Shown here one piece after another: positions 31,775 through 56,090 of a stretch of 64,000 nt of DNA. The notes below the pieces were generated by a model. It was not told the DNA's origin. It saw nothing but the letters and a program-made list of their open reading frames with translations, and ran no database searches. Position numbers and translations under genes: made by a program. How positions within the stretch are numbered: the first letter of the stretch is position 1; the number at the start of each line of letters is the position of its first letter. This stretch comes from an archaeon (GTDB lineage: Archaea; Nanobdellota; Nanobdellia; SCGC-AAA011-G17; GW2011-AR17), in contig JBDRRK010000012.1 in assembly GCA_043825775.1 (NCBI GenBank), positions 129,237 to 193,236 on the forward strand, given 5' to 3'.

Positions 31775-31913
31775 GGGTTTAAGAAAGTCCTTGACATTAA
31801 TAATATTTGTTATTTTCCAACTGTCCAGTCGCTTCGCTCCTCGCCCAACACCCCTTTTACGACTTTTCTCGCCATAAAATATGGATTTTCTGAAAAAAAA
31901 TACCGCCTTAATA

Positions 31914-31938
31914 CACTGTCCGAAACCCGCCTTTAAAA
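31914..31938 (+). promoter_or_regulatory. archaeal BRE/TATA promoter, island family copy 1 (ccgaaacccgcctttaaaa)
   Basis: BRE-like CGAAA immediately 5' of an A/T-rich TATA box, ~35 nt upstream of ATG 31973. A GAGGAGG Shine-Dalgarno lies in between. Confidence 0.6.
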
Positions 31939-31972
31939 TGCGGAAAACACAGGACATGTGAGGAGGAAAAAG

Positions 31973-37834: not shown

Positions 37835-37885
37835 AATTATTTAAGAGTTTAGCCATTTAAATCTTTTTCGTAACACCACATTAAT

Positions 37886-37910
37886 ACCTTTACCGAATCC
37901 CGCCTTTTAA
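37886..37910 (+). promoter_or_regulatory. archaeal BRE/TATA promoter, island family copy 2 (tacctttaccgaatcccgccttttaa)
   Basis: Lies ~25 nt upstream of ATG 37933 and shares the tacctt..ccgaa.cc.gc..ttta core with the copies at 43297 and 47452. Confidence 0.6.
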
Positions 37911-37932
37911 CCAAAGTAAGCACAGTGCTTAT

Positions 37933-38634
37933 ATGTTAAACAAGATTTACTGCATGGACAACCTGAAGTACCTGAAGAAGGTAAAGGATAACTCAGTTGA
38001 CCTTGTTGTTATTGACCCACCGTACAATGTGAGCCAGAAGAACAACATAAAATACAAGGACATTAACATTGTCAAGAACTTTGGTTCATGGGATTATGGC
38101 TTTGATCCTGTTCCTGTTTTGAAAGAATTAAAAAGAGTGTTAAAACCCAATGGACAGATTTATATCTTCTGTGCTACCAAACAGATTCCAATTTATATGA
38201 ATATACTTGAAGAAGAATGGTTTTTTAGGAATTTATTAGTTTGGTACAAGACAAATCCTGCTCCTAGGATGAGTAAGACTAACTTTGTGTTTGCAAATGA
38301 ATATATTCTTTATGCTATAAATGAAAAGGTTAAACCCAGTTCTGCTACTTTTAATTTTTTGGGACAGTCTTCTATGCATAACACAATCATTACTTCGGCT
38401 TTGCAAGGGAAAGAGAGATTAAAGAAAGATGGGAAGGCACTTCATCCAACCCAAAAGCCACTTTCTGTATTGAAGAAGTTGATTTCTGTATCAAGTAATG
38501 AAGATGATGTTGTGTTGGATGTGTTTATGGGTGTTGGTTCAACTGCAGTTGCTTGTAAAGAGCTAGGTAGAAACTTTATGGGCTGTGAGTTAGATAAGGA
38601 GTATGTTAGGGAGGGGAGGAAGAGATTAGACTAA
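37933..38634 (+). CDS. DNA methyltransferase (N6-adenine/N4-cytosine, beta-class; solitary)
   Basis: Motif IV VVIDPPYNV comes before motif I DVFMGVGSTAVA, as in the ParB-/CcrM-like MTase family. No adjacent endonuclease. Confidence 0.75.
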   Translation: MLNKIYCMDNLKYLKKVKDNSVDLVVIDPPYNVSQKNNIKYKDINIVKNFGSWDYGFDPVPVLKELKRVLKPNGQIYIFCATKQIPIYMNILEEEWFFRNLLVWYKTNPAPRMSKTNFVFANEYILYAINEKVKPSSATFNFLGQSSMHNTIITSALQGKERLKKDGKALHPTQKPLSVLKKLISVSSNEDDVVLDVFMGVGSTAVACKELGRNFMGCELDKEYVREGRKRLD

Positions 38635-39741: not shown

Positions 39742-40425
39742 ATGGTAAAAAAATACAATTCTTTTAAAAAAGCTCTGCAAGGTCTTCATGGTTTAAGCGA
39801 TGAAGAGGCTGATGCTTTTTTTCTTTTGTGCAATAACAAAATTTTCTGTGTTAATGATGTAAAAAAGATTTTAGTTGATATAAAAGCTCATAAAAAAAGC
39901 AGATCCACAGCATATAATTTAGTAGAAAAATTCGTAAAAGTGGGATTAATAACGCAAGTAAACAATGGTAGCAAAAAACAAGAATATGAATGTGTGCATC
40001 CAAGGGCAATATATAATGAACTTAAAATCCAGTTAACTCATGCTGAAAAAGAATTGCCTGAATTAGAAACTTCTTATGAAACTTCAGATTTTAAATCCCA
40101 AGATCCAAGAGAAAAATCTAAAATATTAAAATCAGAAAATGAAATATATTCAATATGTTATTCTTTAAGAGATTGTAAAATAGATATTGTTCATGATGGA
40201 AGCCCAATTATGACAGATTTTTTGGAAAGAATCAAAGATTGTGGATGTGTAAAGAAAGGAGCTACAAATGTTATTATATTTAAAAATGATGAAAAAGGAG
40301 ACAACTGCGGAGTTATAGAATTGTTAAAAAGAACCGAAAAGGGTGCTAAGGTAAGATTGTATGGTTATTTGTTGTATGATGAAGAAAAGTATAATTATTT
40401 TAAAAAAAAGGAGGTGAAAAAATGA
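39742..40425 (+). CDS. HTH-containing protein (putative toxin/partner of the Panacea protein)
   Basis: Winged-helix-like STAYNLVEKFVKVGLI, then a Cys-containing C-terminal domain. Overlaps the next gene by 4 nt. Confidence 0.4.
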   Translation: MVKKYNSFKKALQGLHGLSDEEADAFFLLCNNKIFCVNDVKKILVDIKAHKKSRSTAYNLVEKFVKVGLITQVNNGSKKQEYECVHPRAIYNELKIQLTHAEKELPELETSYETSDFKSQDPREKSKILKSENEIYSICYSLRDCKIDIVHDGSPIMTDFLERIKDCGCVKKGATNVIIFKNDEKGDNCGVIELLKRTEKGAKVRLYGYLLYDEEKYNYFKKKEVKK

Positions 40426-40856
40426 ATGAGCAAAAAGAAATTATGCTTTCTGTAATTTATTTGCTCGAAAAAGTATGGGGGAGGACATATTTACAAAAAT
40501 TTTTTTATTTATTAAACCGTGAAGTGTTTAAAGGTCATCTTTTTAGTTATGACCTATATAAATATGGGCCTTTCTCTGAACAAATAAATACACAACTTAC
40601 AGAATTGGAAATTGAAGGTCTTGTTGAAGAAAAAGCTCTTTTGACCAAAGGATTGCATACAGCTTATACATATAAATTAACAAAAAAAGGTCAAAAATAT
40701 GCCAGCAACATTTTCATAAAACTACCAAATAAAACAAGAGATGAACTAGTGAATTATACAAATAAATTCAAACAGTATTCACCAACAGAACTATTAAGAT
40801 TTGTCTATGAAAAATACCCTGAAGTCACAAAGAATAGCATCTACAATAAAGAATAG
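40422..40856 (+). CDS. Panacea (DUF4065/SocA-like) domain protein, putative antitoxin
   Basis: LQKFFYLLNREVF ... YKYGPFSE matches the Panacea signature (KLqKLlY ... YGP). Paralogous to 55024-55599. Confidence 0.5.
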   Translation: MNEQKEIMLSVIYLLEKVWGRTYLQKFFYLLNREVFKGHLFSYDLYKYGPFSEQINTQLTELEIEGLVEEKALLTKGLHTAYTYKLTKKGQKYASNIFIKLPNKTRDELVNYTNKFKQYSPTELLRFVYEKYPEVTKNSIYNKE

Positions 40857-40959: not shown

Positions 40960-41220
40960 ATGGAAAAAGAGATGGTCAATGCTATTTCATTGCTAAAATC
41001 AAGTAAATATAGATTTAAGATTACTAAAGCAATAGATAATAATACTCTTACTCCTTCTGAAATAGCAAATAAAACCCAAATAAGACTTAATCACGTAAGT
41101 ATGTTCTTGAGAGAACTAAAAGACAATAAATTAGTTAAATGCCTAAATGAAAAAAGTAGAAAAGGAAGGCTATATGAATTAACAGAACTAGGTAAAAATG
41201 CAATCAAAAAACTCAATTAA
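40960..41220 (+). CDS. small winged-HTH regulator, controller (C-protein)-like, of the restriction-modification system
   Basis: 86-aa HTH protein (LTPSEIANKTQIRLNHVSMFLRELKDNKLV) immediately upstream of and overlapping the MTase gene. Confidence 0.5.
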   Translation: MEKEMVNAISLLKSSKYRFKITKAIDNNTLTPSEIANKTQIRLNHVSMFLRELKDNKLVKCLNEKSRKGRLYELTELGKNAIKKLN

Positions 41221-42478
41221 ATTCAAAGATGAATCTTGGGACTTTAGAAAAGGTGATACCAAATACAGTAATCATGGTATTCATACTTATCCTGCTATGA
41301 TGATACCCCAAATAGCTAGAAGATTAATTGAAATGTATGGAAAAGGTTCAAAAGTAATTTTAGATCCATTTATGGGTTCTGGAACCGCTTTACTCGAAGC
41401 TACATTGCATAATAATTTTATAAAAGCTTATGGTATTGATATTAACCCTCTTGCATTATTAATTGCAAAAGCTAAAACAACACCAATTGATCCAAATAAA
41501 CTTCTTGTAGAATATAACAGATTAATCGCAGATAGTGTTAGTGAAAAAAAGAAAGTCATGTTTGAGGGAAAGAAAATTAACAAACCTAATTTTTTTAATA
41601 TTGATTTCTGGTTTAAACCTGATGTGATTACAGATTTAGCAATAATAAAAGATAGCATTAATAATATTTCTAATGAAACAACAAAAAACTTTTTCTTGGT
41701 GGCTTTTTCCGAAACTGTTAGAAATGTATCAAATACAAGAAATAGGGAATTCAAGCTTTATAGAATGAGTCCTGCAATGTTAGAAAAACATAATCCTGAT
41801 ACATTTAATGAATTCAAAGAAAGAGTCAGACTTAATTTAGCAAAGATGGATGAATTTACAAAAGAAGTAAATAAAAATTGTCAAGTAAATGTCCTTGATG
41901 AAGACACAAGAAACATCAAGTCAATAAAAGATCAAGAAGTGGATTTAATTGTTACTTCCCCACCTTATGGTGATAGTAGAACAACTGTGGCTTATGGCCA
42001 ATTTTCAAGGTTAGCTTTGCAATGGATTGGTTTTGATAAAAAAACAGTAATTGATATTGATAAAATTAGTTTGGGTGGGATTCCTACAAAAGAACTTCAA
42101 GTTAATCTAGAATCACCAACATTAAAAAAAATAATAGAAGAAATCGCAAAAGAAGATTCAAAAAGAGCAAAGGATGTCTTAAGTTTTTATGTTGATTTTG
42201 ATAAATGCATAAAAGAATTGCATAGAGTAACCAAAGATGGAGCTTATTTATGTTTTGTTGTGGGAAACAGGACAGTTAAAGGAATACAAATACCTACCGA
42301 TGATATAATTGTCGAGTTATTTAAGTCTAAAAATAATTATCAACATATTAATACCTTTATTAGGAATATTCCACATAAAAGAATGCCTAAGAAAAATAGC
42401 CCAACAAATAAGATTGGTAAACTTTCAAATACAATGAATGAAGAGTGGATTATTATTCTTCAAAAGAAAAAACATTAA
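41198..42478 (+). CDS. DNA methyltransferase (N4-C/N6-A family, alpha-type order I-TRD-IV)
   Basis: N-terminal HTYPAMMIPQIARRLIEMY ... DPFMGSGT (motif I) and VTSPPYG (motif IV) ~190 aa later. This is the PF01555-type MTase family to which M.MvaI and M.BcnI belong. Confidence 0.8.
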   Translation: MQSKNSIKFKDESWDFRKGDTKYSNHGIHTYPAMMIPQIARRLIEMYGKGSKVILDPFMGSGTALLEATLHNNFIKAYGIDINPLALLIAKAKTTPIDPNKLLVEYNRLIADSVSEKKKVMFEGKKINKPNFFNIDFWFKPDVITDLAIIKDSINNISNETTKNFFLVAFSETVRNVSNTRNREFKLYRMSPAMLEKHNPDTFNEFKERVRLNLAKMDEFTKEVNKNCQVNVLDEDTRNIKSIKDQEVDLIVTSPPYGDSRTTVAYGQFSRLALQWIGFDKKTVIDIDKISLGGIPTKELQVNLESPTLKKIIEEIAKEDSKRAKDVLSFYVDFDKCIKELHRVTKDGAYLCFVVGNRTVKGIQIPTDDIIVELFKSKNNYQHINTFIRNIPHKRMPKKNSPTNKIGKLSNTMNEEWIIILQKKKH

Positions 42479-43215
42479 AGAATAATTTCTTTCTTTTCAT
42501 AGAGTTTATCTAAATGATTTCTGGATAATCTAAATCCTGGACCATGATCTCTAACAAAGAAATTACCTTTTCCCTGAGTCCTTTCTCTAATATCCATTCT
42601 AAACTCCCAAACCATTAATCCTTCTTTTAATAAAAGTTCGAATGCTTTTTCTGTCATTTTTGTTAACAAAATAGCGCTAGAATAATTAAAATATTCGCCA
42701 TCTTTTTCCATCTTCCTAAATGCCAATACCATTAACAGGTTTTCATGTAACTTCTTCTTTAAAATAGCCATTAATTCTTCAATCTTGAAAAAAGAAACTA
42801 CTCCACCTTCTTTGTGAACAATATTCAATTTGTTATTTTCCTCATCTAATTCTAGTTTAAACCCTTGCTCATTAAATCCATCTACTTTTAGAGTTGTCTT
42901 TAATGCTTTTCTTCCTTTAATGTCTTTATAACCATATTTTTCTATTATTTGCTTTGCACTTAATGGAGACCAATGAGGAACTTTTGTAAACAAAGTAACT
43001 CTAGAAGAAGCATCAATCCTTTGTGCTTTTAATTCTACAGGTATACCATTATATGAAAGATCAGGCTCTCCAAGATTATTTTCTTTAATTCCTAGCATAG
43101 TTTCAAGAGTATATCCTATTCCAGTGTTATCTTTTCTTAAAGATTTAACAAACCCTTTATCTTTTAGTTCTTTTAACTTCTCTTTTATATCAATTTCAAT
43201 TAATCCTTCTGCCAT
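42475..43215 (-). CDS. type II restriction endonuclease, MvaI/BcnI-like (tentative)
   Basis: Convergent with the MTase and overlapping it by 4 nt. GIGYTLETMLGIKENNLGEPDL...IPVELKAQR resembles the MvaI_BcnI family N-terminal motif. Confidence 0.45.
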   Translation of the reverse strand: MAEGLIEIDIKEKLKELKDKGFVKSLRKDNTGIGYTLETMLGIKENNLGEPDLSYNGIPVELKAQRIDASSRVTLFTKVPHWSPLSAKQIIEKYGYKDIKGRKALKTTLKVDGFNEQGFKLELDEENNKLNIVHKEGGVVSFFKIEELMAILKKKLHENLLMVLAFRKMEKDGEYFNYSSAILLTKMTEKAFELLLKEGLMVWEFRMDIRERTQGKGNFFVRDHGPGFRLSRNHLDKLYEKKEIIL

Positions 43216-43296
43216 TATTTTTGTTAAGAAACAGATTGTTAAATACTGATATCACATAATAGATACAATTTAGATACAATATTATATTATTCGTAT

Positions 43297-43325
43297 TACC
43301 TTCTCCGAAACCCGCTATTTACATA
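43297..43325 (+). promoter_or_regulatory. archaeal BRE/TATA promoter, island family copy 3 (taccttctccgaaacccgctatttacata)
   Basis: 27/29 identical to the copy at 47452. Lies ~33 nt upstream of ATG 43357. Confidence 0.65.
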
Positions 43326-43356
43326 ACCGAGCCACTAGGCTGTTAGGGTGTGATTA

Positions 43357-43515
43357 ATGAACTGTAGGATATGTAAAAAGAAACTCGAGGCAAAGGAAGG
43401 AACCCTCTGTAGAACATGTATTAGGTTCTTCAAATGGAAATACCGGACTCTTGAGAAATTCCGAGCATCCTACAGTTCAGCCCTTAAAGCCGATGGAGGT
43501 AATCAAGATGACTGA
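43357..43515 (+). CDS. 52-aa zinc-ribbon protein (first gene of the transfer-module operon)
   Basis: MNCRICKKKLEAKEGTLCRTCIRFFKWKYRTLEKFRASYSSALKADGGNQDD with CxxC...CxxC. Its end overlaps the start of the next gene. Not in the ORF track. Confidence 0.4.
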   Translation: MNCRICKKKLEAKEGTLCRTCIRFFKWKYRTLEKFRASYSSALKADGGNQDD

Positions 43516-43738
43516 ACTTCTGAATGGAATATTAATGGGAGTTTTCTTTTCCCTGCTTATGGTGGACACTGTTCTTCTGTTAATGTATCTAATGAAGAAA
43601 TCAAAGAAAAATCCGAAGAAAAAAATTCCCCAAGTCGCACCAAAACAGGAAACTAAACCTGTGAAGGAAAAGAAGGATATTTTTCTTGGATTTAGAAATT
43701 TATTCCCTAAAAAACTTAAAGGAGGTAAAGAACAATGA
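43508..43738 (+). CDS. small single-TM protein with a basic tail (track ORF 43451..43738, start moved to the SD-preceded ATG)
   Basis: GGAGGT lies 7 nt before ATG 43508. Product is MTELLNGILMGVFFSLLMVDTVLLLMYLMKKSKKNPKKK.... Confidence 0.4.
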   Translation: MTELLNGILMGVFFSLLMVDTVLLLMYLMKKSKKNPKKKIPQVAPKQETKPVKEKKDIFLGFRNLFPKKLKGGKEQ

Positions 43739-44070
43739 AATTGGCGCCGATTTTATTTTTGTTGCTTTTGTTGGTAACATTAGCAACGCCCTTAGTTGCA
43801 GCTGCGATTGATTTTGATGAAGAATTGACACAGGAGGAAGAAGATACTTTTGATGCAATTTTAGCACCTATAATGAAAGTATACAACTTTATCAAGTATG
43901 CTATGTCTGTTGTAGCAGTTTTAATGCTAGTATTTGCAGGTATTACTTTTGTAACTGCTGGCGGAGAAACGGGTAAGAAAGAAAAAGCAAAGAATATGAT
44001 GGTAGGAGTTGTGATTGGATTAATAATAATCTGGGTTGCACCTTTGGTTGTGGAGTATATCTTTACATGA
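43735..44070 (+). CDS. VirB2/TrbC-pilin-like or CedA1-like small membrane protein
   Basis: Long Sec signal (MKLAPILFLLLLLVTLATPLVAAA), an acidic segment, then two TM helices separated by a short K-rich loop, at 111 aa. GGAGGT Shine-Dalgarno and an ATGA overlap with the flanking genes. Confidence 0.4.
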   Translation: MKLAPILFLLLLLVTLATPLVAAAIDFDEELTQEEEDTFDAILAPIMKVYNFIKYAMSVVAVLMLVFAGITFVTAGGETGKKEKAKNMMVGVVIGLIIIWVAPLVVEYIFT

Positions 44071-46109
44071 AACCATTTATTTTTGTGGGAGTGATTCTTT
44101 TATTACTCCCATTTTCTTTAGCTTTTGATTGTTCTCTTACTTATGATGAAGATTATTGCCTTGAAATTATAAATTCTGAGTTAAATGAAACTGAAAAAGA
44201 TTTAGTGTTATCTTCTTTATTGTATGCTGATAATAAGTTTCCAAATTACGAATTTATCGAAGAGTATAATTTAGATATAGAGGTTGATGCTCCACCAGAT
44301 AATACTGCTATATATAATTCTGCTCAAATAAAAAATGCTTGGTTGAGTTTTTTAATTGTTTTTCCCTCTATTTATGAAGAAGAAATACTCTATGTTCCTT
44401 ATTATATCAATGTTTTGAGTGAATATAATTATGAAGTTGAGATACCAACTGAAACAAGAGCTGGAGATTGTAGGACTGAATATGAATTAGTTCAAAACAA
44501 TGTAGAGGTTTATTATTATCTTAATAATCTTTTAAAAGGCTCTGGAAAAACTGACTCTTTTGCTTCTAATGATGGAACATTAACAGCAGAACTAAATATT
44601 AACACAAGAATAAAAGTAGATCATTATAGAACACAAACTTACTGCTGTGGGTGGGCTGATTGGCAACAAATAAACTGTGATAGATACTGCACAAGATGTG
44701 TTTATTCCCATACTGATTATGAAGATGATTCAATACAGATTACAGAGGAGAAAAACATTACTCTATATACTGAAGAGCCTTTTGTTAATTTAACTGTTGT
44801 AAATGAGTATTGGAATACAACCAAAGGCATATTTACAGCAGAAAATTACAGCTATTTTGAATTAAATTTTGAAGATTCTTATATTTCCAAACAGAATTAT
44901 TATTATGATCTTGTTTTTGAGAAAAAACCCTACTATATTGCTTACATAAGAGCTAATAATTTCAGCCATACTGCACTAAGTAATCTCTTCTTAGATAACA
45001 ATACCTTTTTTGTAAAAAATACTGAAAATTGCAGTTTATTTGCTTTTAATCACTTCTATAATTTTACTTCTGGATGCGATTTAACTCTTTATCAGGAAAA
45101 TCTAGAAGAATTGAGCATGGAAGAGGGAAATATTAATCTAACTTTTATTTTTTATATAATAATTTTTTTAATAGTAATCTATACAATTTACATACTTCTT
45201 AAATCACAGGCACGAAAGATAATAATTCCTTTATTTTTTATTTTATTATTGCTTCCTCTTGTTTCTGCAGCAGAAGAAGAATGTGGAATAACTAACTTGG
45301 CTTCATGCATTCCTGAAAAGATTTATGATTTTTTTATTAATCTGATAAACCAACCAATTTTACCAACTTTAAGTGCAATTGAATCATTACTTACTGCTGA
45401 AGGAAATATAGATTTATTTTATCATTTATGGAGTGTAATAAGATATATCATGAGCTTCTTTTACATATTTTTCTTTGTCTATGTAGGTTATGTATTTCTA
45501 ATGTCTAATGATAATCCAATCAAAAGAGCACATGCCAAAGAGATGCTAAAGAATACTTTTTTGATGATTATGTTAATTCAAGGTTCATTTTTCATTTATG
45601 GTTTAGCTTTAGATGTAAATAGTGCTTTGAGTAGTGCAATACTAACAATGGTTGATCCAACTTTCTTCTTAATTACTGCCGACAACATTGTAAATATTGG
45701 CTTAGAGTTTATGCTGACATGGACATACTCTTTTATTTTGTTTATAACAATGTTAATGTTGGTTTTAAGATATATGGTAGTCTGTTTTGGAGTTGTGATA
45801 TTCCCCATAGGATTGTTTTGTTATTTTATCCCTCCCATGAAAGCCATTGGAAAGTTTCTTATTTCTTTTTTAGCCATATTTATCTTTGTAACTTTCTTTG
45901 ATTTATTGATTATAGTAGCTTGTTCATACTTAGTTGATATTCCTCTATTTGAAAATTTTAAGATTTGTGTTATGATTATGTGTTTTGGTATTATCATTTA
46001 CACTCTCTGGTTTGCGATTAAATTTACCCTGAGAATGTCTACAAATGTTTCAATCAAGGATGATTTGAATCAGGCTGTAAAATATGTTGCTATGGTTGCT
46101 GCTGTTTAA
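44067..46109 (+). CDS. large polytopic membrane protein with Cys-rich, N-glycosylation-sequon-rich ectodomain (VirB6/TrbL-like candidate)
   Basis: Signal/TM start, ~330-aa extracytoplasmic region with about 14 Cys and ~10 N-x-S/T sequons, then ~8 TM helices over ~330 aa. Confidence 0.45.
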   Translation: MKPFIFVGVILLLLPFSLAFDCSLTYDEDYCLEIINSELNETEKDLVLSSLLYADNKFPNYEFIEEYNLDIEVDAPPDNTAIYNSAQIKNAWLSFLIVFPSIYEEEILYVPYYINVLSEYNYEVEIPTETRAGDCRTEYELVQNNVEVYYYLNNLLKGSGKTDSFASNDGTLTAELNINTRIKVDHYRTQTYCCGWADWQQINCDRYCTRCVYSHTDYEDDSIQITEEKNITLYTEEPFVNLTVVNEYWNTTKGIFTAENYSYFELNFEDSYISKQNYYYDLVFEKKPYYIAYIRANNFSHTALSNLFLDNNTFFVKNTENCSLFAFNHFYNFTSGCDLTLYQENLEELSMEEGNINLTFIFYIIIFLIVIYTIYILLKSQARKIIIPLFFILLLLPLVSAAEEECGITNLASCIPEKIYDFFINLINQPILPTLSAIESLLTAEGNIDLFYHLWSVIRYIMSFFYIFFFVYVGYVFLMSNDNPIKRAHAKEMLKNTFLMIMLIQGSFFIYGLALDVNSALSSAILTMVDPTFFLITADNIVNIGLEFMLTWTYSFILFITMLMLVLRYMVVCFGVVIFPIGLFCYFIPPMKAIGKFLISFLAIFIFVTFFDLLIIVACSYLVDIPLFENFKICVMIMCFGIIIYTLWFAIKFTLRMSTNVSIKDDLNQAVKYVAMVAAV

Positions 46110-46151
46110 GAAACAAATAATTTTTTAAAGAAGGGTATTTTTTCTATAATA

Positions 46152-47120
46152 ATGGAAAAGGTTATCTTTGATAAGAATTTATTATTAAATCCTGAAATAT
46201 TAAAAGAACAATTAGTATTCCCTAAAGATTCTAAGATTGCAATAAAAATGCATATGGGGGAAGAGAATAATAAAACTTGTTTGAGAGCTGAAGATGTTAA
46301 GCCAATTGTAGATGTTTTACTTGAATTAGGAACTAAACCATTTATTATAGATACTCCTGTGTCCTATAAGGGTGGACGTCATACTTGTGAAGCCTATTTG
46401 AAAACTGCTAAGGATAATGGGTTTTCTGAAGAAACTATTGGTTGTCCTATTGTAATTTCAAATGATTATCATGAAGTAAGAACTGAATATATGGATTTTC
46501 AAGTATGTAAGGAACTTTATGAAACAGAGTATATGATTGTTTTATCTCATGTTAAGGGGCATTGTTGTACTGGATTTGGTGGAGCTATTAAGAATTTGTC
46601 TATGGGTGGAGCAACTATAAAGTCTAAAAGAGATATGCATTCTTTAGGAAAACCAGATATTCTTAAAGAGTGTAGTTTGTGTGGTATTTGTGAGAAAAAC
46701 TGCCCTGCAAAGTGTATTAAGATTGATGATAAATTGAATATTAATTTAGATGGTTGTTGGGGCTGTGGTGTTTGTGTTGTTAATTGTCCTGAAAAGATTT
46801 TGAAACCTAAAACTGTGTTAATTGATGAGTTACTTGCTGAAGGTGCTTGGGCTAGTGTGCAGAATAAGAAGAAGATTTTATGTATCAATATGATTAAGAG
46901 GATTACTAAACTTTGTGATTGTGAGTCTGATTCTGGTAAGATTATTGCTCCTGATGTTGGAGTGTTGTTTTCTAGTGATCCAGTTGCAATTGATCAGGCT
47001 TCTATTGATTTGGTTGGAGATGCTTTTTTGAAAGAGAATCATAAGGATCCTCAGTTGCAGATTGATTATTCTGAGAAGTTGGGTTTTGGTGGGAAGGATT
47101 ATGAATTGGTAAAGGTTTAA
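46152..47120 (+). CDS. DUF362-domain protein with 2x[4Fe-4S] ferredoxin domain
   Basis: CSLCGICEKNCP and CWGCGVCVVNCP dicluster motifs inside a DUF362-like fold. Confidence 0.65.
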   Translation: MEKVIFDKNLLLNPEILKEQLVFPKDSKIAIKMHMGEENNKTCLRAEDVKPIVDVLLELGTKPFIIDTPVSYKGGRHTCEAYLKTAKDNGFSEETIGCPIVISNDYHEVRTEYMDFQVCKELYETEYMIVLSHVKGHCCTGFGGAIKNLSMGGATIKSKRDMHSLGKPDILKECSLCGICEKNCPAKCIKIDDKLNINLDGCWGCGVCVVNCPEKILKPKTVLIDELLAEGAWASVQNKKKILCINMIKRITKLCDCESDSGKIIAPDVGVLFSSDPVAIDQASIDLVGDAFLKENHKDPQLQIDYSEKLGFGGKDYELVKV

Positions 47121-47365
47121 TATTTTAATTTTAAATATAATTCATATAAAACAATAATTCCAAAAATACTATTCATAATTATAATTGGAAGGCTAGAAAT
47201 AAGAAATCCATACGCTATCCAGAACCCTGTTCCTATTAATGTAGCTAGAATCATATTTAATGCAAGGTCTTGAACTTTTTTGGTCTTATATGATTTGATT
47301 ACTTGTGGAATAAAACTAACCATAATAAAAATCCCACCTAAATAACCTATTATATCTTCGATCAT
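47117..47365 (-). CDS. SemiSWEET (PQ-loop / MtN3-like 3-TM sugar transporter)
   Basis: 82 aa with 3 TM helices and the PQ motif in TM1 (SFIPQVIKSYKTKKVQDLAL). Confidence 0.6.
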   Translation of the reverse strand: MIEDIIGYLGGIFIMVSFIPQVIKSYKTKKVQDLALNMILATLIGTGFWIAYGFLISSLPIIIMNSIFGIIVLYELYLKLKY

Positions 47366-47451
47366 GATATTATGTTTATTTGATTAGAATATAAATTTTT
47401 CTTATTTTTTTTACATACAAATCCACAATTTCTATTAATTTATTTAAGTAT

Positions 47452-47480
47452 TACCTTTTCCGAAACCTGCTATTTAAAAA
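47452..47480 (+). promoter_or_regulatory. archaeal BRE/TATA promoter, island family copy 4 (taccttttccgaaacctgctatttaaaaa)
   Basis: Lies ~20 nt upstream of ATG 47500, consistent with a leaderless transcript. Confidence 0.65.
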
Positions 47481-47499
47481 TCAAAAACCCATTATTTAT

Positions 47500-50400
47500 A
47501 TGGGCTACGATATCCCCCCACCATTAGAACATAAGGAAAAGATAATGTTTGGTTTAACATTCTCACAGTTAGCTTATGCTTTTCCTGCTTTTCTGATTAT
47601 TTTCTTTTTAGTATTTAGAATGAATCTACCCATTACAGTTTCAGGAACAATATCTTTAATTGTTGCATTTACTGCAGCCTTCTTTATGTTTTTTGATGGA
47701 TTGAACAAAATAAGAAACTGGTATAATTATTTCAAGAATCCTCAAGTCAAGGTTTTAAGCAAGTTATTAAAACAAATTGTAGATATCAAGAAAATAAAAG
47801 ATGATGTTGTCCACCAATCTAAAGTTCAGTTAGCAATAATAGAAGTAATACCAATGAACTTCATGCTAAAGACAGAAGAGGAAAAGGAATCAATAATAAT
47901 CGGATTTCAAAAATTTCTTAATTCTTTAGACTTCCCTATTCAAATACATATTTCAAGCAATCCAATAAGTTTAAGTGAGCATTTCAGCTATACAGACAAG
48001 AAAGCAAAGGAAAAAGATTTGAAAGAATTGGTTGATTCATATTGTGGTTTTGTAAGGAAATCAATAGAAGACAATAACATACAGAACAGGAACTTCTACA
48101 TTATAATCAAAGAAAAAGACAACCTTGACATACAGGTAAAGATCTGCTGTGAAGGATTAAAATCTTTAGGATTAAAAATAAAAAGATTGAATGACAAGGC
48201 ACTAACCGAATTGTTTCATAATTATATAGCCAATAAAAAACAAAAGGATTTTCAAGAAGAAGTAAAGGATATAGCTCATTTCTTATTCTCTCCAGAAAAA
48301 ATAATGTTTCATCCTGATCATTTTGAAGTGGATGATACTTTTTGTAGAGTAATTTCAGTAACAGGTTATCCACATTCTGTTGAGATGGGTTTTTTGGATA
48401 AGCTAATAAGTTCTGGAGAAAAATATGACATCAGCATACATATTGAGCCTTTCCCAATTGAGATTACAATGATTGAATTAAATAGGGATTTACAAAAACA
48501 ACAGTCCGATTTATATGCAGATTCAAAAAAAGGCATCATAAACCCATCTTTAGAAATCAAATACAAATGCACAAGAAAAGTTTTAGAGGATTTGCAGAAA
48601 GGTAAACAAAAACTCTTTAATGTTTCTCTATATGTAATGTGCAGAGGAAAGGATAAAAAAGAAATTGATCTGTTAGCAAAAAAAATTAAAGCTGATTTAG
48701 ATGGGTTGATGATACAAAGCAAAGCCCCCATGTTTCAAATGATGGAATCGTATGCTTCAATGCTTCCTCTGGCTAATAATAAATTAAAAGTTAAAAGAAA
48801 TATTCACACAGAAGGATTGGCTGCATTTTTTCCTTTCTCTTCTCCTTTTTTGGATATTGAAAATGATGGTATCTTATTGGGCTGGAACAAGAATAAAATC
48901 CCATTTATCAAGAATGTTTTCAACCTTGCTAATGCAAATGGTATTATCTTAGCTACATCCGGCTCAGGAAAGAGTTATTTCACTAAATTGCTCCTTTCTA
49001 GGCAATATATGAATGGATGTGATATAATAATCATTGATCCACAAGGCGAGTATTTGGCGATCACAGAGCACTATAAGGGCGAGTCTATAACCATTTCCAA
49101 GAACTCCAAGACAATGATTAATCCATTAGATCTGATGGGGCATGAATACCTAGAGAAAAGGCTGTCTTTGATAGATTTATTCAAGATTATGTTTGGAGAT
49201 TTAAACGAGTTACAGCAGTCTATCTTGGACAAGGCCATTGACACGACTTATGAAAATCATGGAATTACAAGGGATGATTACGAAAGCCACGAACCTCCTG
49301 TCATGAGTGATTTATTTGATACTTTGCAGAAATTAGAGAAGACAGCAGTTCAGCAGGAAAAGGTTACTTATAGAGCCTTAATGAATAGGATTCAGATGTA
49401 TACAAAGAAAGGAGTCTTTGGTTTTCTTGATAGAAAAACAGAGATTAACTTTGAAAATAAATTTGTATGTTTTAATATTGGTTCAATGCCTAAACAAGTC
49501 AAGCCAGTTATTATGTTTCTTGTTTTAGATTTTGTTTTTATGAGAATGAAAGAGACAAGTAGAAGAAAATTATTGGTGATAGATGAGGCTTGGGCTATGC
49601 TTCAGACAGCAGAGGAATCCTCTTATGTTTTTGAAATTGTGAAGACTTGTCGGAAGTATAATTTGGGAATGTTAATGATTACTCAGGATGTTGCTGACTT
49701 AGTTGGTTCCAAGGCAGGTCACGCAGTCTTGGCAAACACATCTTATACTTTTCTATTAAGACAAAAGCCTGCTGTGATTCAGAATGTTGCAAGAACTTTT
49801 AATTTAAGCAATGCTGAAAAGGAGTTTTTAATTTCAGCTAAGTTAGGAAATGGTATTTTGATTTTGGAGAATGAACATCAGGAGTTGGAAGTCATAGCCT
49901 CCCCTGTTGAACATGAATTGATAACAACAAACCCTGATGAGTTGATTAAATTAACTGAGAGAAAAAAGCATGAACCTAAAGTTAAAAAGGAATCTGAAAC
50001 AGCTGACTTGGATTTGAACAAGGCAGTATTTTCACCTAAAGGTCTGACAGCTCTACAGGTTAATGTCCTGAACAATCATGAATATGTCTTGAAAAAGTTC
50101 CATGATTTAGAAACTGGACCTCGGCCTTACTATGTCAAGGCCCGCCACCCTGAATCAGTGGATCATACCTTCTTGGTTGAGATTATTGCAGATGAAATCA
50201 AGAAATACACCAAAGAGGTGGAGGTCTACCAAACCAAAAATGCTGACATTATTTTCAAGAACAAAGTCGGCCAGAAAATAGCCTTGGAAATAGAGACTGG
50301 AAAGGAATTTGACAAACATCAGAAAAGACTTGAAGAGAAGTTTGAAAACCTAAGAAAAACCATGGGTGGAAGGGTTTATATAATTTTAACAGATACATCT

Positions 50401-50532
50401 ATAAAAAATAGATACCTTAGATTTAACACTCAAATATTGAGTAGAAATAAAATTAAAGAGTTTGTAAAGTTACAATTTAGTGGAAATAAGAACTCTTATA
50501 TAGGGGGGATTTTAAACTTGACGAGTAGCTAA
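47500..50532 (+). CDS. VirB4/TrbE/CagE-family DNA-transfer ATPase with N-terminal TM helices and a ~190-aa C-terminal extra domain
   Basis: Two N-terminal TM helices (VirB3-like). Walker A ATSGSGKSYFT, Walker B/DEAW box LLVIDEAWAML, then ITQDVADL, at 1010 aa. The C-terminal region has a D-x12-LEIE arrangement reminiscent of PD-(D/E)xK. Confidence 0.8.
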   Translation: MGYDIPPPLEHKEKIMFGLTFSQLAYAFPAFLIIFFLVFRMNLPITVSGTISLIVAFTAAFFMFFDGLNKIRNWYNYFKNPQVKVLSKLLKQIVDIKKIKDDVVHQSKVQLAIIEVIPMNFMLKTEEEKESIIIGFQKFLNSLDFPIQIHISSNPISLSEHFSYTDKKAKEKDLKELVDSYCGFVRKSIEDNNIQNRNFYIIIKEKDNLDIQVKICCEGLKSLGLKIKRLNDKALTELFHNYIANKKQKDFQEEVKDIAHFLFSPEKIMFHPDHFEVDDTFCRVISVTGYPHSVEMGFLDKLISSGEKYDISIHIEPFPIEITMIELNRDLQKQQSDLYADSKKGIINPSLEIKYKCTRKVLEDLQKGKQKLFNVSLYVMCRGKDKKEIDLLAKKIKADLDGLMIQSKAPMFQMMESYASMLPLANNKLKVKRNIHTEGLAAFFPFSSPFLDIENDGILLGWNKNKIPFIKNVFNLANANGIILATSGSGKSYFTKLLLSRQYMNGCDIIIIDPQGEYLAITEHYKGESITISKNSKTMINPLDLMGHEYLEKRLSLIDLFKIMFGDLNELQQSILDKAIDTTYENHGITRDDYESHEPPVMSDLFDTLQKLEKTAVQQEKVTYRALMNRIQMYTKKGVFGFLDRKTEINFENKFVCFNIGSMPKQVKPVIMFLVLDFVFMRMKETSRRKLLVIDEAWAMLQTAEESSYVFEIVKTCRKYNLGMLMITQDVADLVGSKAGHAVLANTSYTFLLRQKPAVIQNVARTFNLSNAEKEFLISAKLGNGILILENEHQELEVIASPVEHELITTNPDELIKLTERKKHEPKVKKESETADLDLNKAVFSPKGLTALQVNVLNNHEYVLKKFHDLETGPRPYYVKARHPESVDHTFLVEIIADEIKKYTKEVEVYQTKNADIIFKNKVGQKIALEIETGKEFDKHQKRLEEKFENLRKTMGGRVYIILTDTSIKNRYLRFNTQILSRNKIKEFVKLQFSGNKNSYIGGILNLTSS

Positions 50533-55023: not shown

Positions 55024-55599
55024 ATGGTTTATATGGAGGAAGATCAAATTTTGGAAAATATGTCGGAGTTACAGAAATATATAGTTCTACTCCTAAAAGC
55101 AAATAATAGAGAACTTATTAAAGGTAACACTTGGTTTCAAAAAGAACTTTTTCTTATTTCTAAAAATATTCCTTCCGTAGCTGAAGAAGCCTCTTTTGAA
55201 GCAGATATGTATGGTCCTTTTAGTGAAACTGCTGAAGAAGAACTTGAAGAACTTGGAATGGATGATGTTGTTTTAAAATCTGGAAATAAAGTTTTTTTAT
55301 CAAGTTTAGGAGATAAAATTGCTGCTAAAATAAAATCAAATATATCTAAAGAAGAATTCGAAATGATTTCAGAATTTAAGACCTTATTAAATGATTTGAA
55401 TCCTGAAGAAGTATTGACTTTAATTTATTTTACTTTTCCTAATATGACTCAAGAGTCTTTAGTTTTGGACAATATCAAGAAGCATAGAAAAAAAATAGCT
55501 ATAGAGTTATACAAAAAAGGAAAAATTAGTCTTCAAAGGGCATCTGAAATTGCAGATTTGCCTTTAGAAATTTTTGTTGAGGAGATTAAAAACATATGA
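55024..55599 (+). CDS. Panacea (DUF4065/SocA-like) domain protein, putative antitoxin
   Basis: LQKYIVLLLKANNREL ... DMYGPFSE, paralogous to 40422-40856. Confidence 0.5.
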   Translation: MVYMEEDQILENMSELQKYIVLLLKANNRELIKGNTWFQKELFLISKNIPSVAEEASFEADMYGPFSETAEEELEELGMDDVVLKSGNKVFLSSLGDKIAAKIKSNISKEEFEMISEFKTLLNDLNPEEVLTLIYFTFPNMTQESLVLDNIKKHRKKIAIELYKKGKISLQRASEIADLPLEIFVEEIKNI

Positions 55600-56090
55600 A
55601 AATTACTGATTCTTCTTGCTTAATCTGTATATTTGTAGAGATTGAAAAACCATTTATTCTGCTTAATTGGATAAAAAGAGGATATAAAATTGTTATTCCT
55701 CATCAAATATTTAAAGAATTACAAAAAAATAAAAAAACTTTTGAGAAAGTTAAACCAAAAATAAATGAAGGATTAATTACACTACAAAAATTAATAAATG
55801 AAGAAGATATTATAAAATTTAGAAATAGACATCCTCAACTTGGAAAAGGAGAAATATCTGTTATATTAACAGCTATAATGTTAAATAAACAAAAAAAGAG
55901 ATATTATGCAGTAATAGATGATAAAAATGCGAGAAAGATAGCTCAAAAATATAATATTCAACTCACAGGAACATATGGTTTGTTGAAGACATTAAATGAT
56001 AAAAAAGTTATTTCAAAAAAAGAGTTCACTGATTGTAAAAAAGCGATGCAAGATTCAAAATTTAGGATAAATTTTGATAAAATAAAATGA
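55596..56090 (+). CDS. PIN-like nuclease domain protein (putative toxin)
   Basis: KITDSSCLICIF (D5), KELQ (E41) and AVIDDKNARKIA (D108/109) follow the spacing of PIN catalytic acidics. The ATGA overlaps both neighbours. Confidence 0.4.
   Translation: MKITDSSCLICIFVEIEKPFILLNWIKRGYKIVIPHQIFKELQKNKKTFEKVKPKINEGLITLQKLINEEDIIKFRNRHPQLGKGEISVILTAIMLNKQKKRYYAVIDDKNARKIAQKYNIQLTGTYGLLKTLNDKKVISKKEFTDCKKAMQDSKFRINFDKIK

What the first reader, a model, noticed from the sequence alone, without database searches (positions are those of the whole stretch)
43297..50532. VirB4-centred membrane DNA-transfer module (conjugation- or Ced-like) inside an integrated element of an AT-rich archaeon
The module has five co-oriented genes plus a 1010-aa ATPase:
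- a 52-aa zinc-ribbon protein;
- a 77-aa single-TM protein;
- a 111-aa signal-peptide + 2-TM protein with VirB2/TrbC-pilin or CedA1-like architecture;
- a 680-aa protein with a glycosylation-sequon-rich ectodomain and ~8 TM helices (VirB6/TrbL-like candidate);
- the ATPase, with VirB3-like N-terminal TM helices, Walker A GSGKSY and the VirB4-typical DEAW Walker B.

The first four genes overlap each other and share a dedicated promoter family. The block sits in a region that also carries two integrases, a resolvase, restriction-modification and toxin-antitoxin genes. No VirD4-type coupling protein or relaxase appears in the window. That resembles the crenarchaeal Ced/Ted DNA-import systems (a small-pilin-like protein, a pore, and a VirB4/HerA-like ATPase) as much as classical conjugation. 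Such systems are essentially undescribed for small-genome AT-rich (DPANN-like) archaea.
Basis: partly seen in the sequence, partly recalled or inferred. Interest (0 to 1): 0.9.

Follow-up and report, generated by a model that had tools for sequence, protein, structure and literature searches.

The report
Minimal type IV secretion module, DPANN archaeon
A tiny-genome archaeon carries a stripped-down version of the bacterial conjugation machine (pilin, membrane channel with an adhesin-like head, and a motor ATPase with a built-in nuclease-like domain); the same module is conserved across many related archaea and I found no description of it in the literature I could search.

Summary
Window 43357-50532 encodes a Zn-ribbon protein, a small one-helix membrane protein, a VirB2/TrbC-type pilin, a 680-aa protein and a 1010-aa VirB4 ATPase. 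The 680-aa protein is a beta-sandwich ectodomain fused to a helical membrane domain. The best structural match to that model in the PDB is VirB6 (TrwI) of plasmid R388. The ATPase has a VirB3-like N-terminus.

- Two unrelated genes split the module (DUF362/ferredoxin and SemiSWEET, 46152-47365).
- The last ~180 residues of VirB4 form a confidently modelled PD-(D/E)XK nuclease-like domain with invariant acidic residues.
- The order Zn-ribbon, pilin, VirB6-like, VirB4 recurs in about 60-70 of 85 related loci from Woesearchaeota/Nanoarchaeota. It often lies on chromosome-sized contigs, next to DNA methylases, restriction systems and integrases.

No coupling protein or relaxase was found in the window or recurrently in related loci. 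A 29-nt promoter-like motif precedes both halves of the module.

My best reading is a Ced/Ted-like minimal T4SS derivative that moves nucleic acid. Direction and substrate are unproven. It is a new variant of a known kind. I found no paper describing it.

The parts
43293..43321 (+). Promoter-like motif copy 1 (GTATTACCTTCTCCGAAACCCGCTATTTA), 35 nt upstream of the Zn-ribbon gene
   Evidence: The 29-nt pattern occurs exactly twice in 64 kb, with 0 expected. It belongs to the top direct-repeat family D1. Related motifs precede Zn-ribbon, virB6-like or virB4 genes in other loci.
43357..43515 (+). 52-aa Zn-ribbon protein (CxxC...CxxC), first gene of the operon
   Evidence: ORF. Weak zinc-ribbon Pfam hits, E 0.017-0.02. 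Homologues lie upstream of the pilin gene, often immediately, in 38 related loci. The profile also matches the N-termini of neighbouring C5 DNA methylases.
43505..43738 (+). 77-aa protein with one hydrophobic helix and a lysine-rich tail; accessory, poorly conserved
   Evidence: ORF. No family match. Recognisable homologues occur in only 3 loci. Analogous small ORFs sit at the same position in L086.
43735..44070 (+). 111-aa VirB2/TrbC-type pilin: signal peptide, two hydrophobic helices, basic loop
   Evidence: Pfam T4SS_pilin E 1.3e-12 and TrbC E 1.3e-6, both above curated cut-offs. Found in 64 related loci next to the VirB6-like gene. Alignment A4. NCBI names it 'pilin', MFH1972652.1.
44067..46109 (+). 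680-aa fusion protein. Beta-sandwich, Cys- and sequon-rich ectodomain (aa ~20-345, nt 44124-45101); membrane anchor (aa 359-379); VirB6-like helical membrane domain (aa ~408-680, nt 45288-46106)
46152..47365 (.). Insertion that is NOT part of the module: DUF362 + 4Fe-4S protein (46152-47120, +) and SemiSWEET (47117-47365, -)
   Evidence: Pfam and NCBIfam. Neither has a homologue in any of the 85 related loci. In L004, L009, L011, L034, L046 and L087 the VirB6-like gene abuts virB4.
47448..47476 (+). Promoter-like motif copy 2 (GTATTACCTTTTCCGAAACCTGCTATTTA), 23 nt upstream of virB4
   Evidence: A related motif sits 18-27 nt upstream of virB4 in L025, L033, L035, L026, L027, L038 and L040, where virB4 is separated from the upstream genes.
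47500..50532 (+). 1010-aa VirB3-VirB4-nuclease-like fusion. VirB3/PrgI-like membrane hairpin (aa 10-69, nt 47527-47706); VirB4 N-domain (aa ~110-430); P-loop ATPase (aa 476-784, nt 48925-49851); C-terminal PD-(D/E)XK-like domain (aa ~830-1010, nt 49987-50529)
31909..31939 (+). Looser copy of the promoter-like motif, upstream of a 132-aa gene, a tyrosine recombinase (32353-33183), Hjc (33146-33475) and a 153-aa gene. Possible co-regulated unit.
   Evidence: Repeat family D1, regex hit, Pfam.
37882..37912 (+). Looser copy of the promoter-like motif, upstream of an N4/N6 DNA methylase (37933-38634)
   Evidence: Repeat family D1. Homologous methylases lie near virB4 in 10 other loci.

Best explanation
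This is a minimal derivative of a type IV secretion system.

Shown:
- A VirB2-type pilin.
- A VirB6-type membrane protein carrying an adhesin-like beta-sandwich head.
- A single motor protein that fuses a VirB3-like membrane hairpin, a VirB4 ATPase and a C-terminal PD-(D/E)XK nuclease-like domain.
- A small Zn-ribbon protein that is also conserved.
- The set is conserved as a unit in many Woesearchaeota/Nanoarchaeota genomes.
- It lacks a VirD4-type coupling protein and a recognisable relaxase.
- Both of its transcription units carry the same promoter-like motif.

Inferred:
- The VirB4 hexamer docks on VirB6 through its VirB3 part. It extracts pilin from the membrane to build a short pilus or conduit.
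- The ectodomain contacts a partner (host) cell.
- Nucleic acid is passed across the membrane while the cytoplasmic nuclease-like domain binds or cuts it. This domain would take the place of a relaxase (export) or process incoming strands (import).

In composition it works like the crenarchaeal Ced/Ted DNA importers. It is also comparable to the co-opted T4SS of Patescibacteria, more than to a classical conjugative plasmid system. The direction of transport is unknown.
For: Component identities:
- VirB4.
- Pilin.
- VirB6 fold as the top PDB match.
- Homology between the pilin and the first hairpin of the VirB6-like domain. Beltran et al. report the same for CedA1/CedA and VirB2/VirB6 (PMC9905601).

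Conservation:
- 553+ VirB4 homologues of about 1000 aa at 50-90% identity.
- 398 matches in JGI metagenomes.
- Pilin in 64, the VirB6-like protein in 70 and the Zn-ribbon in 38 of 86 loci, co-oriented upstream of virB4.
- Contigs of 0.2-1.5 Mb.

No coupling protein:
- VirB4 is the only transfer-type Walker-A ATPase among window ORFs of 100 aa or more.
- No second recurrent Walker-A family occurs in the related loci.
- The singletons are UvrD, Lon, kinases and the like.

Nuclease-like domain:
- AF2 pLDDT 89.6, pTM 0.85, with an alpha-beta-beta-beta-alpha-beta core.
- Foldseek probability 0.87-0.97 to NucS/EndoMS, YaeQ and R.BspD6I.
- Invariant E885, D916, E930, E932 and K947.
- 496 clusters at E<=1e-10.

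DNA-centred neighbourhood: C5 and N4/N6 methylases, type I R-M, DUF2779/Cas4-like, UvrD, RecQ and integrases.

Shared promoter motif.
Against: - No experiment bears on the substrate or the direction of transport.
- The nuclease assignment rests on a predicted fold with modest scores: no Foldseek hit at E<=0.001, and TM 0.3-0.42.
- The active-site motif is non-canonical, D...ExE plus a distal K.
- The neighbourhood of methylases and restriction systems could simply mark a variable defence island rather than a functional link.
- In Patescibacteria, a related relaxase-less T4SS is essential for epibiotic growth, and its substrate is unknown (PMC12102498, PMC12857230). A non-DNA role is therefore possible.
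- In this window the module is split by two unrelated genes.
- In one lineage (L002/L003/L021) virB4 has no adjacent pilin or VirB6-like gene.
Confidence: 0.6

Rival explanations
1. It is the mating-pair-formation module of an integrated conjugative element (ICE-like). The module exports the element's own DNA. The linked integrase-Hjc operon excises or resolves the element. The VirB4-fused nuclease replaces the relaxase.
For: - The same promoter-like motif precedes the integrase-Hjc operon, a DNA methylase and both T4SS transcription units.
- Integrases lie within 10 kb of virB4 in 12 related loci, and the window has two further away, 14-17 kb upstream.
- L004 carries two divergent complete modules flanking methylases and two integrases.
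- The region is rich in R-M and TA genes.
- The closest plasmid relatives of the VirB4 are conjugative Firmicutes systems of the CD1110 family.
- Known archaeal conjugative plasmids also lack recognisable relaxases (PMC9905601; PMC12857230).
Against: - No VirD4-type coupling protein was found. Both characterised archaeal plasmid systems, pNOB8 and pT33-3, have one.
- No att-like direct repeats bound the region.
- No replication or partition genes were identified.
- Flanking genes differ widely between loci and include housekeeping genes.
- A TFB gene and a ~90-aa gene stay linked downstream of virB4 across loci with 48-72% VirB4 identity. This suggests a long-resident locus.
- No relatives were found on IMG/VR contigs.
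Confidence: 0.2
2. It is a host-interaction apparatus that does not move DNA. The pilus and adhesin-VirB6 attach the episymbiont to its host and transfer proteins, RNA or metabolites, as proposed for the essential T4SS of Patescibacteria.
For: - Patescibacteria have a relaxase-less, MPF_FATA-derived T4SS with T4SS_pilin-type (PF18895) pilins that is essential for epibiotic growth (PMC12102498; PMC12857230).
- The window pilin matches the same Pfam family.
- The Ig/FN3-like ectodomain looks like an adhesin.
- DPANN archaea share the reduced-genome, host-dependent lifestyle.
Against: - The motor carries an invariant nuclease-like domain, and the neighbourhood is DNA-centred. Both point to nucleic acid.
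- The Patescibacteria loci also encode VirB1-, VirB8- and VirD4-like parts, which are absent here.
- No effector-like genes are conserved next to the module.
Confidence: 0.15
3. It is an anti-plasmid or anti-phage defence system, or a housekeeping HerA/FtsK-type DNA pump with a nuclease effector, and not a secretion system.
For: - It lies among R-M, TA and other defence genes.
- Weak PADLOC matches to mad8 (E 4.5e-14) and HerA.
- ATPase-nuclease fusions are common in defence systems.
Against: - The VirB4-family matches are 80 or more orders of magnitude better: E 1e-100 against 4.5e-14.
- A VirB4-specific N-domain is present.
- The conserved partners are a bona fide T4SS pilin and a VirB6-fold protein.
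- The four membrane or small proteins have no PADLOC match.
Confidence: 0.03

Closest known systems
Ced (Sulfolobales) and Ted (Thermoproteales) DNA-import systems
   Same: - The same three-part logic: VirB2-like pilin, VirB6-like channel and VirB4-like ATPase.
- No coupling protein and no relaxase.
- The channel protein begins with a pilin-homologous hairpin (here; PMC9905601).
- Chromosomal location.
- Ted loci associate with nucleases and helicases (HerA, Rad50), which parallels the nuclease-like domain and the UvrD/RecQ neighbours here.
   Different: - No detectable sequence similarity was shown. The pilin profile finds no solved CedA1 or TedC chain.
- The host is DPANN, not Thermoproteota.
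- VirB3 is fused to VirB4, and the nuclease-like domain is fused to the motor.
- VirB6 carries a large beta-sandwich ectodomain.
- A Zn-ribbon gene is part of the operon.
- Import and damage-induction are untested.
Patescibacteria (CPR) T4SS, MPF_FATA-derived
   Same: - Ultrasmall, host-dependent organisms.
- VirB4 of the monoderm MPF_FATA type.
- Pilins of Pfam T4SS_pilin/TrbC type.
- A relaxase is usually absent (PMC12102498).
   Different: - That study found no VirB3-VirB4 fusions in CPR. Here the fusion is universal.
- The CPR loci described also have VirB1-, VirB8- and VirD4-like genes.
- No C-terminal nuclease-like domain is reported for CPR.
Conjugative VirB4 of Firmicutes/Tenericutes elements (CD1110 family; Mycoplasma ICE CDS17 / Mbov_0397 family)
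   Same: - These are the best-scoring curated families: E 5.7e-95 and 1e-100, end to end over the VirB4 part.
- They share 24-31% identity over residues ~110-820.
- Mycoplasma ICEs likewise use a minimal set without VirB1 or VirB8.
   Different: - Scores fall below the equivalog cut-offs: 319 against 325, and 338 against 590.
- Those systems have a VirD4 and a relaxase.
- None of the 5000 best-scoring plasmid records that tblastn retained covers the C-terminal domain.
R388 TrwI/VirB6 (PDB 7O3V) and Legionella DotA
   Different: - Only 6-7% sequence identity.
- The window protein has no Pfam TrbL/VirB6 hit.
- It has an N-terminal beta-sandwich ectodomain that TrwI lacks.
PD-(D/E)XK nucleases (R.BspD6I small subunit, NgoMIV, FokI cleavage domain, NucS/EndoMS, Hjc, Can2/Card1)
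   Same: - The core fold is shared.
- Conserved acidic residues sit at the start of helix 1, the start of strand 2 and on strand 3.
   Different: - The motif is D...E-x-E with a distal Lys rather than (D/E)-x-K.
- No sequence-level match to any Pfam or PDB family.
- Fusion to a VirB4 motor was not seen in any plasmid record.

Membership tests
VirB4 / TraC / TrbE T4SS ATPase | P-loop ATPase domain with Walker A and Walker B of the VirB4/TraG type | tested here: met
   Pfam P-loop_TraG E 5.7e-29 over residues 476-784. GSGKS and DEAW are invariant in 23 homologues. PDB 4AG5, a VirB4 C-domain, E 3.3e-33.
VirB4 / TraC / TrbE T4SS ATPase | VirB4-specific N-terminal domain, which distinguishes it from HerA, FtsK and VirD4 | tested here: met
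   TraC_F_IV 29.9 bits against a cut-off of 28.1. CagE_TrbE_VirB 17.8 bits, below its cut-off of 21. NCBIfam VirB4 models align over residues 22-808.
VirB4 / TraC / TrbE T4SS ATPase | Score above the curated equivalog cut-off of a named subfamily (CD1110, Mbov_0397, TraC-F, VirB4_CagE) | tested here: not met
   319.2 against 325 (CD1110), 337.9 against 590, 168.9 against 567, 137.7 against 643. It is a member of the superfamily but not of any curated subfamily.
VirB2 / TrbC conjugative pilin | Family HMM above the gathering score; signal peptide, two hydrophobic helices and a short basic loop | tested here: met
   T4SS_pilin 48.1 bits against 26.6, and TrbC 28.9 against 27.9. The architecture is visible in the sequence and in alignment A4.
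VirB2 / TrbC conjugative pilin | Assembles into a lipid-bound helical pilus | not testable with these tools
   This needs cryo-EM or cryo-ET of cells or purified filaments.
VirB6 / TrbL channel protein | Polytopic helical membrane protein with the VirB6 fold | tested here: met
VirB6 / TrbL channel protein | Sequence-level match to the TrbL/VirB6 Pfam families | tested here: inconclusive
   No Pfam hit for the window protein or in the rescan of 32 homologues. The precomputed annotation gives a weak TrbL_3 hit in 2 of 60 homologues and DUF8186 in 12 of 60.
VirB6 / TrbL channel protein | Encoded next to virB4 and the pilin gene | tested here: met
   Found upstream of virB4 in 70 of 86 loci, directly abutting it in many, and downstream of the pilin gene.
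Ced / Ted archaeal DNA-import systems | Composition: pilin, VirB6-like channel and VirB4-like ATPase, without coupling protein or relaxase | tested here: met
Ced / Ted archaeal DNA-import systems | The channel protein's N-terminal hairpin is homologous to the pilin | tested here: met
   hhalign of the pilin profile against the stand-alone membrane-protein profile: probability 96.9%, E 1.6e-10, 52 columns.
Ced / Ted archaeal DNA-import systems | Sequence homology to CedA/CedA1/CedB or TedA/TedB/TedC | tested here: not met
   Only the pilin could be tested. A profile search of all PDB chains finds no solved pilin at E<=10. I expect the Ced/Ted pilus structures of PMC9905601 to be among those chains but did not check.
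Ced / Ted archaeal DNA-import systems | Imports chromosomal DNA; induced by DNA damage | not testable with these tools
   This needs genetics or expression data in a cultivated DPANN-host system.
Conjugative plasmid / ICE | VirD4/TraG-type coupling ATPase | tested here: not met
   VirB4 is the only transfer-type Walker-A protein in the window. No recurrent second ATPase family occurs in 85 loci, and none of 10 singletons is a T4CP.
Conjugative plasmid / ICE | Relaxase (MOB family) | tested here: inconclusive
   None was found among about 45 window ORFs scanned with Pfam. Not every ORF was scanned, and archaeal elements lack recognisable relaxases anyway.
Conjugative plasmid / ICE | Integrase and element boundaries (att repeats) | tested here: inconclusive
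   Two tyrosine recombinases are present. One looks like a chromosomal Xer type and lies beside housekeeping genes. No bounding direct repeats of 18 nt or more, other than the promoter motif.
PD-(D/E)XK nuclease superfamily | alpha-beta-beta-beta-alpha-beta core fold | tested here: met
PD-(D/E)XK nuclease superfamily | Catalytic D ... (D/E)-x-K motif | tested here: inconclusive
   Invariant E885, D916, E930-x-E932 and K947. The third position is Glu, not Lys. From my own knowledge, BamHI uses D...E-x-E. Activity is untested.

The most novel reading that the evidence does not exclude
Woesearchaeota/Nanoarchaeota carry a lineage-wide, domesticated T4SS-derived machine. Its motor has a built-in nuclease. 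These nucleotide-auxotrophic episymbionts use it to pull nucleic acid out of, or exchange it with, partner cells. It would be an archaeal counterpart of the essential Patescibacteria T4SS, and a third, independent 'minimal T4SS' lineage beside Ced and Ted. It may be driven by its own promoter element and a linked TFB paralogue.
Probability: 0.3. Interest if true: 0.85.

Novelty: new variant of a known kind. Interest (0 to 1): 0.7.

Why it matters
How DPANN archaea obtain material from their hosts, and how they exchange genes, is largely unknown. Few are cultivated.

This module is conserved and has only a few parts. It is clearly derived from the conjugation machinery, and it carries an adhesin-like head and a nuclease-like tail. 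That gives a concrete, testable candidate for the cell-to-cell conduit.

It also extends the 'pilin + VirB6 + VirB4' minimal T4SS design to a third archaeal lineage. Until now that design was known from Ced/Ted in Thermoproteota. The module also parallels the essential T4SS of ultrasmall Patescibacteria.

The VirB4-nuclease fusion suggests how a T4SS might process DNA without a relaxase or coupling protein.

Tried and rejected
- Profile search of PDB sequences with the 680-aa family: only chance hits, E>1.
- Profile search of PDB sequences with the VirB4 C-domain: polyubiquitin hits. These are an artefact of summing nine sub-threshold repeats over a 31-residue stretch.
- Profile search of PDB sequences with the pilin family: weak RNase-kappa hits, E>=0.11, judged chance.
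- Pfam on the 680-aa protein as a whole, in two halves, and on 32 homologues: nothing useful.
- The genome-contig scan with a single sequence returned one short locus. I could therefore not measure how many DPANN species carry the module.
- IMG/VR scan: no relatives.
- The first jackhmmer runs cross-contaminated the pilin and VirB6-like profiles. I replaced that evidence with a clean hhalign of separately built alignments.
- Search for att-type boundaries: none found.
- Context of stand-alone copies of the C-terminal domain: the contigs were too short to tell.
- Idea that L004 holds an invertible pilin/VirB6 cassette: rejected. The two copies are 45% identical old paralogues, each with its own virB4.
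- Defence-system reading: rejected.
- PHROGs labels the VirB4 N-half 'terminase large subunit' at E 3e-34. I treat this as a mislabelled or VirB4-containing phrog, because the VirB4 models fit far better.

Full report
**What is there**

The window comes from an AT-rich archaeon of about 30% GC. It carries typical archaeal housekeeping genes: thermosome, proteasome beta subunit, aCPSF1, ribosomal proteins L15e and S19e, FtsZ and aIF5A.

The exact VirB4, 680-aa and pilin sequences are in NCBI on a 200,748-bp MAG contig labelled only 'archaeon'. They are named 'DUF87 domain-containing protein', 'hypothetical protein' and 'pilin'. The nearest homologues are from Candidatus Woesearchaeota, Nanoarchaeota and Nanoarchaeia MAGs.

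The first four genes overlap by 11, 4 and 4 nt:
- Zn-ribbon, 43357-43515
- 77-aa protein, 43505-43738
- pilin, 43735-44070
- 680-aa protein, 44067-46109

The module is not contiguous. A DUF362/4Fe-4S gene (46152-47120, +) and a SemiSWEET gene (47117-47365, -) lie between the 680-aa gene and virB4 at 47500-50532. Neither has a homologue in any related locus.

**Identity of the parts**

The 111-aa protein passes the Pfam gathering scores of T4SS_pilin and TrbC. It has the expected signal peptide, two hydrophobic helices and a basic loop.

The 1010-aa protein is a VirB4:
- NCBIfam VirB4 models align end to end over residues 22-808, E 1e-100 and 5.7e-95. The scores stay just below or below the equivalog cut-offs.
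- The VirB4-specific N-domain is present.
- The Walker motifs are invariant.
- The closest solved structure is the VirB4 C-domain 4AG5.
- The closest plasmid genes are CD1110-family VirB4s of Firmicutes, at 24-31% identity.
- Residues 10-69 match PrgI, the VirB3 equivalent. The protein is therefore a VirB3-VirB4 fusion.

The 680-aa protein has no Pfam match. An AlphaFold model built on 32 homologues (pLDDT 78) shows three regions:
- a beta-rich ectodomain, residues ~20-345
- a membrane anchor
- a helical membrane domain, residues 408-680

A clean profile-profile comparison shows that the pilin is homologous to the first helical hairpin of the membrane domain: probability 96.9%, E 1.6e-10. Beltran et al. 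described the same relation for CedA1/CedA and VirB2/VirB6 (PMC9905601).

The last ~180 residues of VirB4 match no Pfam family. They are conserved in all full-length homologues aligned, with invariant E885, H889, D916, E930, E932, G934, K947 and R982.

The AlphaFold model is confident (pLDDT 89.6, pTM 0.85). It shows a small helix/beta-hairpin subdomain followed by an alpha-beta-beta-beta-alpha-beta core.

Two structure-comparison programs agree on PD-(D/E)XK nucleases:
- Foldseek top hits are NucS/EndoMS, AF2093, YaeQ, R.BspD6I, Can2/Card1, Mus81 and Hjc, at probability up to 0.97.

The fold is thus PD-(D/E)XK. The conserved acidic residues sit where catalytic residues are expected.

The scores are modest and the motif is D...ExE rather than D...ExK. 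Nuclease activity is therefore an inference.

A profile of this domain finds 496 clusters (at 50% identity) with E<=1e-10 among 1.84 billion representatives. Most appear to be VirB4 proteins or VirB4 fragments. Some are about 270-300-aa proteins with two N-terminal membrane helices. None of the 5000 best-scoring plasmid records that tblastn retained (its record limit was reached) covers the domain.

**Conservation and synteny**

VirB4 homologues of the same length and architecture number at least 553 clusters. JGI metagenomes hold 398 matches.

I analysed 86 loci, including the window:
- The pilin is found in 64, the VirB6-like protein in 70 and the Zn-ribbon in 38.
- The order Zn-ribbon, pilin, VirB6-like, virB4 is nearly always kept, all on one strand.
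- In more distant lineages the 680-aa protein is two genes, an ectodomain of about 400-470 aa and a membrane protein of about 270-330 aa.
- In others the ectodomain is missing altogether.
- The window protein is therefore a fusion. A second signal-peptide-like segment after residue 380 fits this.

Insertions between the VirB6-like gene and virB4 recur, for example a UvrD-like helicase in L007/L008 and three genes in L086. The two-gene insertion in the window is one instance of this pattern.

Many loci lie on contigs of 0.2-1.5 Mb with housekeeping genes nearby. No relative is on an IMG/VR contig.

**What is absent**

VirB4 is the only transfer-type Walker-A ATPase among window ORFs of 100 aa or more. 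Pfam scans of about 45 window ORFs found no coupling protein or relaxase.

Across the related loci there is no second recurrent Walker-A family. The ten singletons tested are helicases, Lon, kinases and similar proteins.

The recurrent neighbours are:
- C5 DNA methylases, 14 loci
- tyrosine recombinases, 13 loci (the window included)
- HsdM, 11 loci
- TrmB-type regulators, 11 loci
- DUF2779/Cas4-like proteins, 11 loci
- N4/N6 methylases, 11 loci
- reverse transcriptases, 7 loci

**Regulation**

A 29-nt motif, GTATTACCTTYTCCGAAACCYGCTATTTA, occurs exactly twice in the window, with 0 expected. One copy ends 35 nt before the Zn-ribbon start and the other 23 nt before the virB4 start.

It is the top direct-repeat family of the region. 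Two looser copies lie before a 132-aa/integrase/Hjc/153-aa unit and before an N4/N6 methylase.

A related motif (TAYYAC-N4-TCCGA, then a TATA-like box) precedes Zn-ribbon, virB6-like or virB4 genes in other lineages. It accounts for 7 of 12 regex hits in 1.28 Mb of loci. This fits a BRE/TATA promoter with near-leaderless transcripts, and co-regulation of the two halves despite the insertion.

A TFB paralogue plus a ~90-aa gene follows virB4 in 9-10 loci. The TFB is more diverged (31-46% identity) than VirB4 (48-72%). Whether it reads this promoter is speculation.

**Mechanism and rivals**

The best-supported reading is a minimal T4SS derivative. In it, VirB3-VirB4 energises pilin extraction and substrate passage through a VirB6-type channel. 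The ectodomain contacts a partner cell, and the nuclease-like tail handles nucleic acid at the cytoplasmic face.

In composition it matches Ced/Ted: a pilin, a channel with a pilin-like hairpin, an ATPase, and no coupling protein or relaxase. I could not show sequence membership in those families. The host lineage, the fusions and the ectodomain also differ.

Three rivals remain:
- **A true ICE transfer module.** It is supported by the promoter motif shared with the integrase-Hjc unit and by nearby integrases. It is weakened by the lack of a coupling protein, of boundaries and of replication genes.
- **A non-DNA host-interaction role,** as debated for Patescibacteria (PMC12102498, PMC12857230).
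- **A defence or housekeeping ATPase.** This is effectively excluded.

**Novelty**

Six full-text searches and the papers I read turned up no description of this module in DPANN archaea. The papers included a December 2025 T4SS review whose archaeal section, as far as I read it, covers only pNOB8-type plasmids and pT33-3. The closest DPANN report I found concerns VirB4-like domains in the giant SPEARE proteins of nanohaloarchaea (PMC10266531).

Databases already hold the pieces: Pfam DUF8186 and 'TraC-like', and NCBI names such as 'VirB4-like conjugal transfer ATPase, CD1110 family [Nanoarchaeota archaeon]'. I therefore rate it a new variant of a known kind, of high but not extreme interest.

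Noticed in passing
window 46152-47365: A DUF362 + 4Fe-4S ferredoxin-domain gene (+) and a SemiSWEET transporter gene (-) sit between the VirB6-like gene and virB4. Insertions at this junction recur in other lineages with different cargo, such as a UvrD-like helicase in L007/L008, and an AAA ATPase plus an Imm11-like gene in L086. The junction seems to be an insertion hot spot.
   Followed up: partly
window 31909-33933: A small GC-richer patch (36.7% against about 30%) holds a 132-aa gene, a tyrosine recombinase, an Hjc-type resolvase and a 153-aa gene, several with GTG/TTG starts. A looser copy of the T4SS promoter-like motif precedes it. It may be a separate small integrated element or the recombination module of a larger one.
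   Followed up: partly
window 58730-59759; L008, L026, L027, L033, L038, L040, L042, L045, L075: A TFB (TFIIB) paralogue lies downstream of virB4 in 10 loci, the window included, often within 0.3-1.5 kb. In 9 of them a ~82-107-aa gene of unknown function precedes it. The TFB is more diverged than VirB4. It could be conserved chromosomal synteny or a dedicated transcription factor for the module's promoter.
   Followed up: partly
L004 1-13147 (GCA_964498285.1, 780-kb contig): Two complete, divergently oriented modules (pilin, VirB6-like, VirB4; P0050 and P0009) flank two C5 methylases and two tyrosine recombinases. The two VirB6-like proteins are 45% identical and differ most in the ectodomain. 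This suggests paralogous systems with different partner specificity, or two adjacent elements.
   Followed up: partly
P0183, P0209, P0224, P0227; L088, L089: The C-terminal nuclease-like domain of VirB4 also exists as stand-alone proteins of about 270-300 aa anchored by two N-terminal membrane helices. The contigs found were too short to see whether a T4SS is nearby.
   Followed up: partly
L004 2827-3915 and 6145-7194; L010 6066-7136: The profile of the 52-aa Zn-ribbon protein also matches the N-termini of C5 cytosine DNA methylases encoded next to the module (E 1e-9 to 9e-5). C5 methylase genes are the most frequent neighbours of the module.
   Followed up: no
window 39742-40856 and 55024-56090: A TrmB-like 227-aa gene plus a 144-aa gene recurs beside virB4 in L002/L003/L021. 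The 144-aa protein matches PADLOC PDC-M19A (E 3e-12) and weakly DarG. A homologue is fused to a UPF0175 antitoxin domain at 55024-55599, followed by a PIN-like gene. These are probably toxin-antitoxin or defence pairs.
   Followed up: partly
window 41198-43215: A complete type II restriction-modification pair, an N4/N6 methylase (+) and an MvaI/BcnI-family endonuclease (-), lies immediately upstream of the module. A wHTH gene at 40960-41220 precedes it.
   Followed up: yes
window 47500-50532 (PHROGs result): PHROGs phrog_2666, annotated 'terminase large subunit', matches VirB4 residues 106-520 at E 3e-34. That phrog probably contains, or is mislabelled from, VirB4-type proteins of integrated elements.
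   Followed up: no
window 27456-27524: Short tandem 15-27-nt lysine-codon-rich repeats (GTTAAGAAAAAAGC...) lie in the spacer upstream of the radical-SAM-like gene at 27641-28582. They were seen in the repeat scan only.
   Followed up: no
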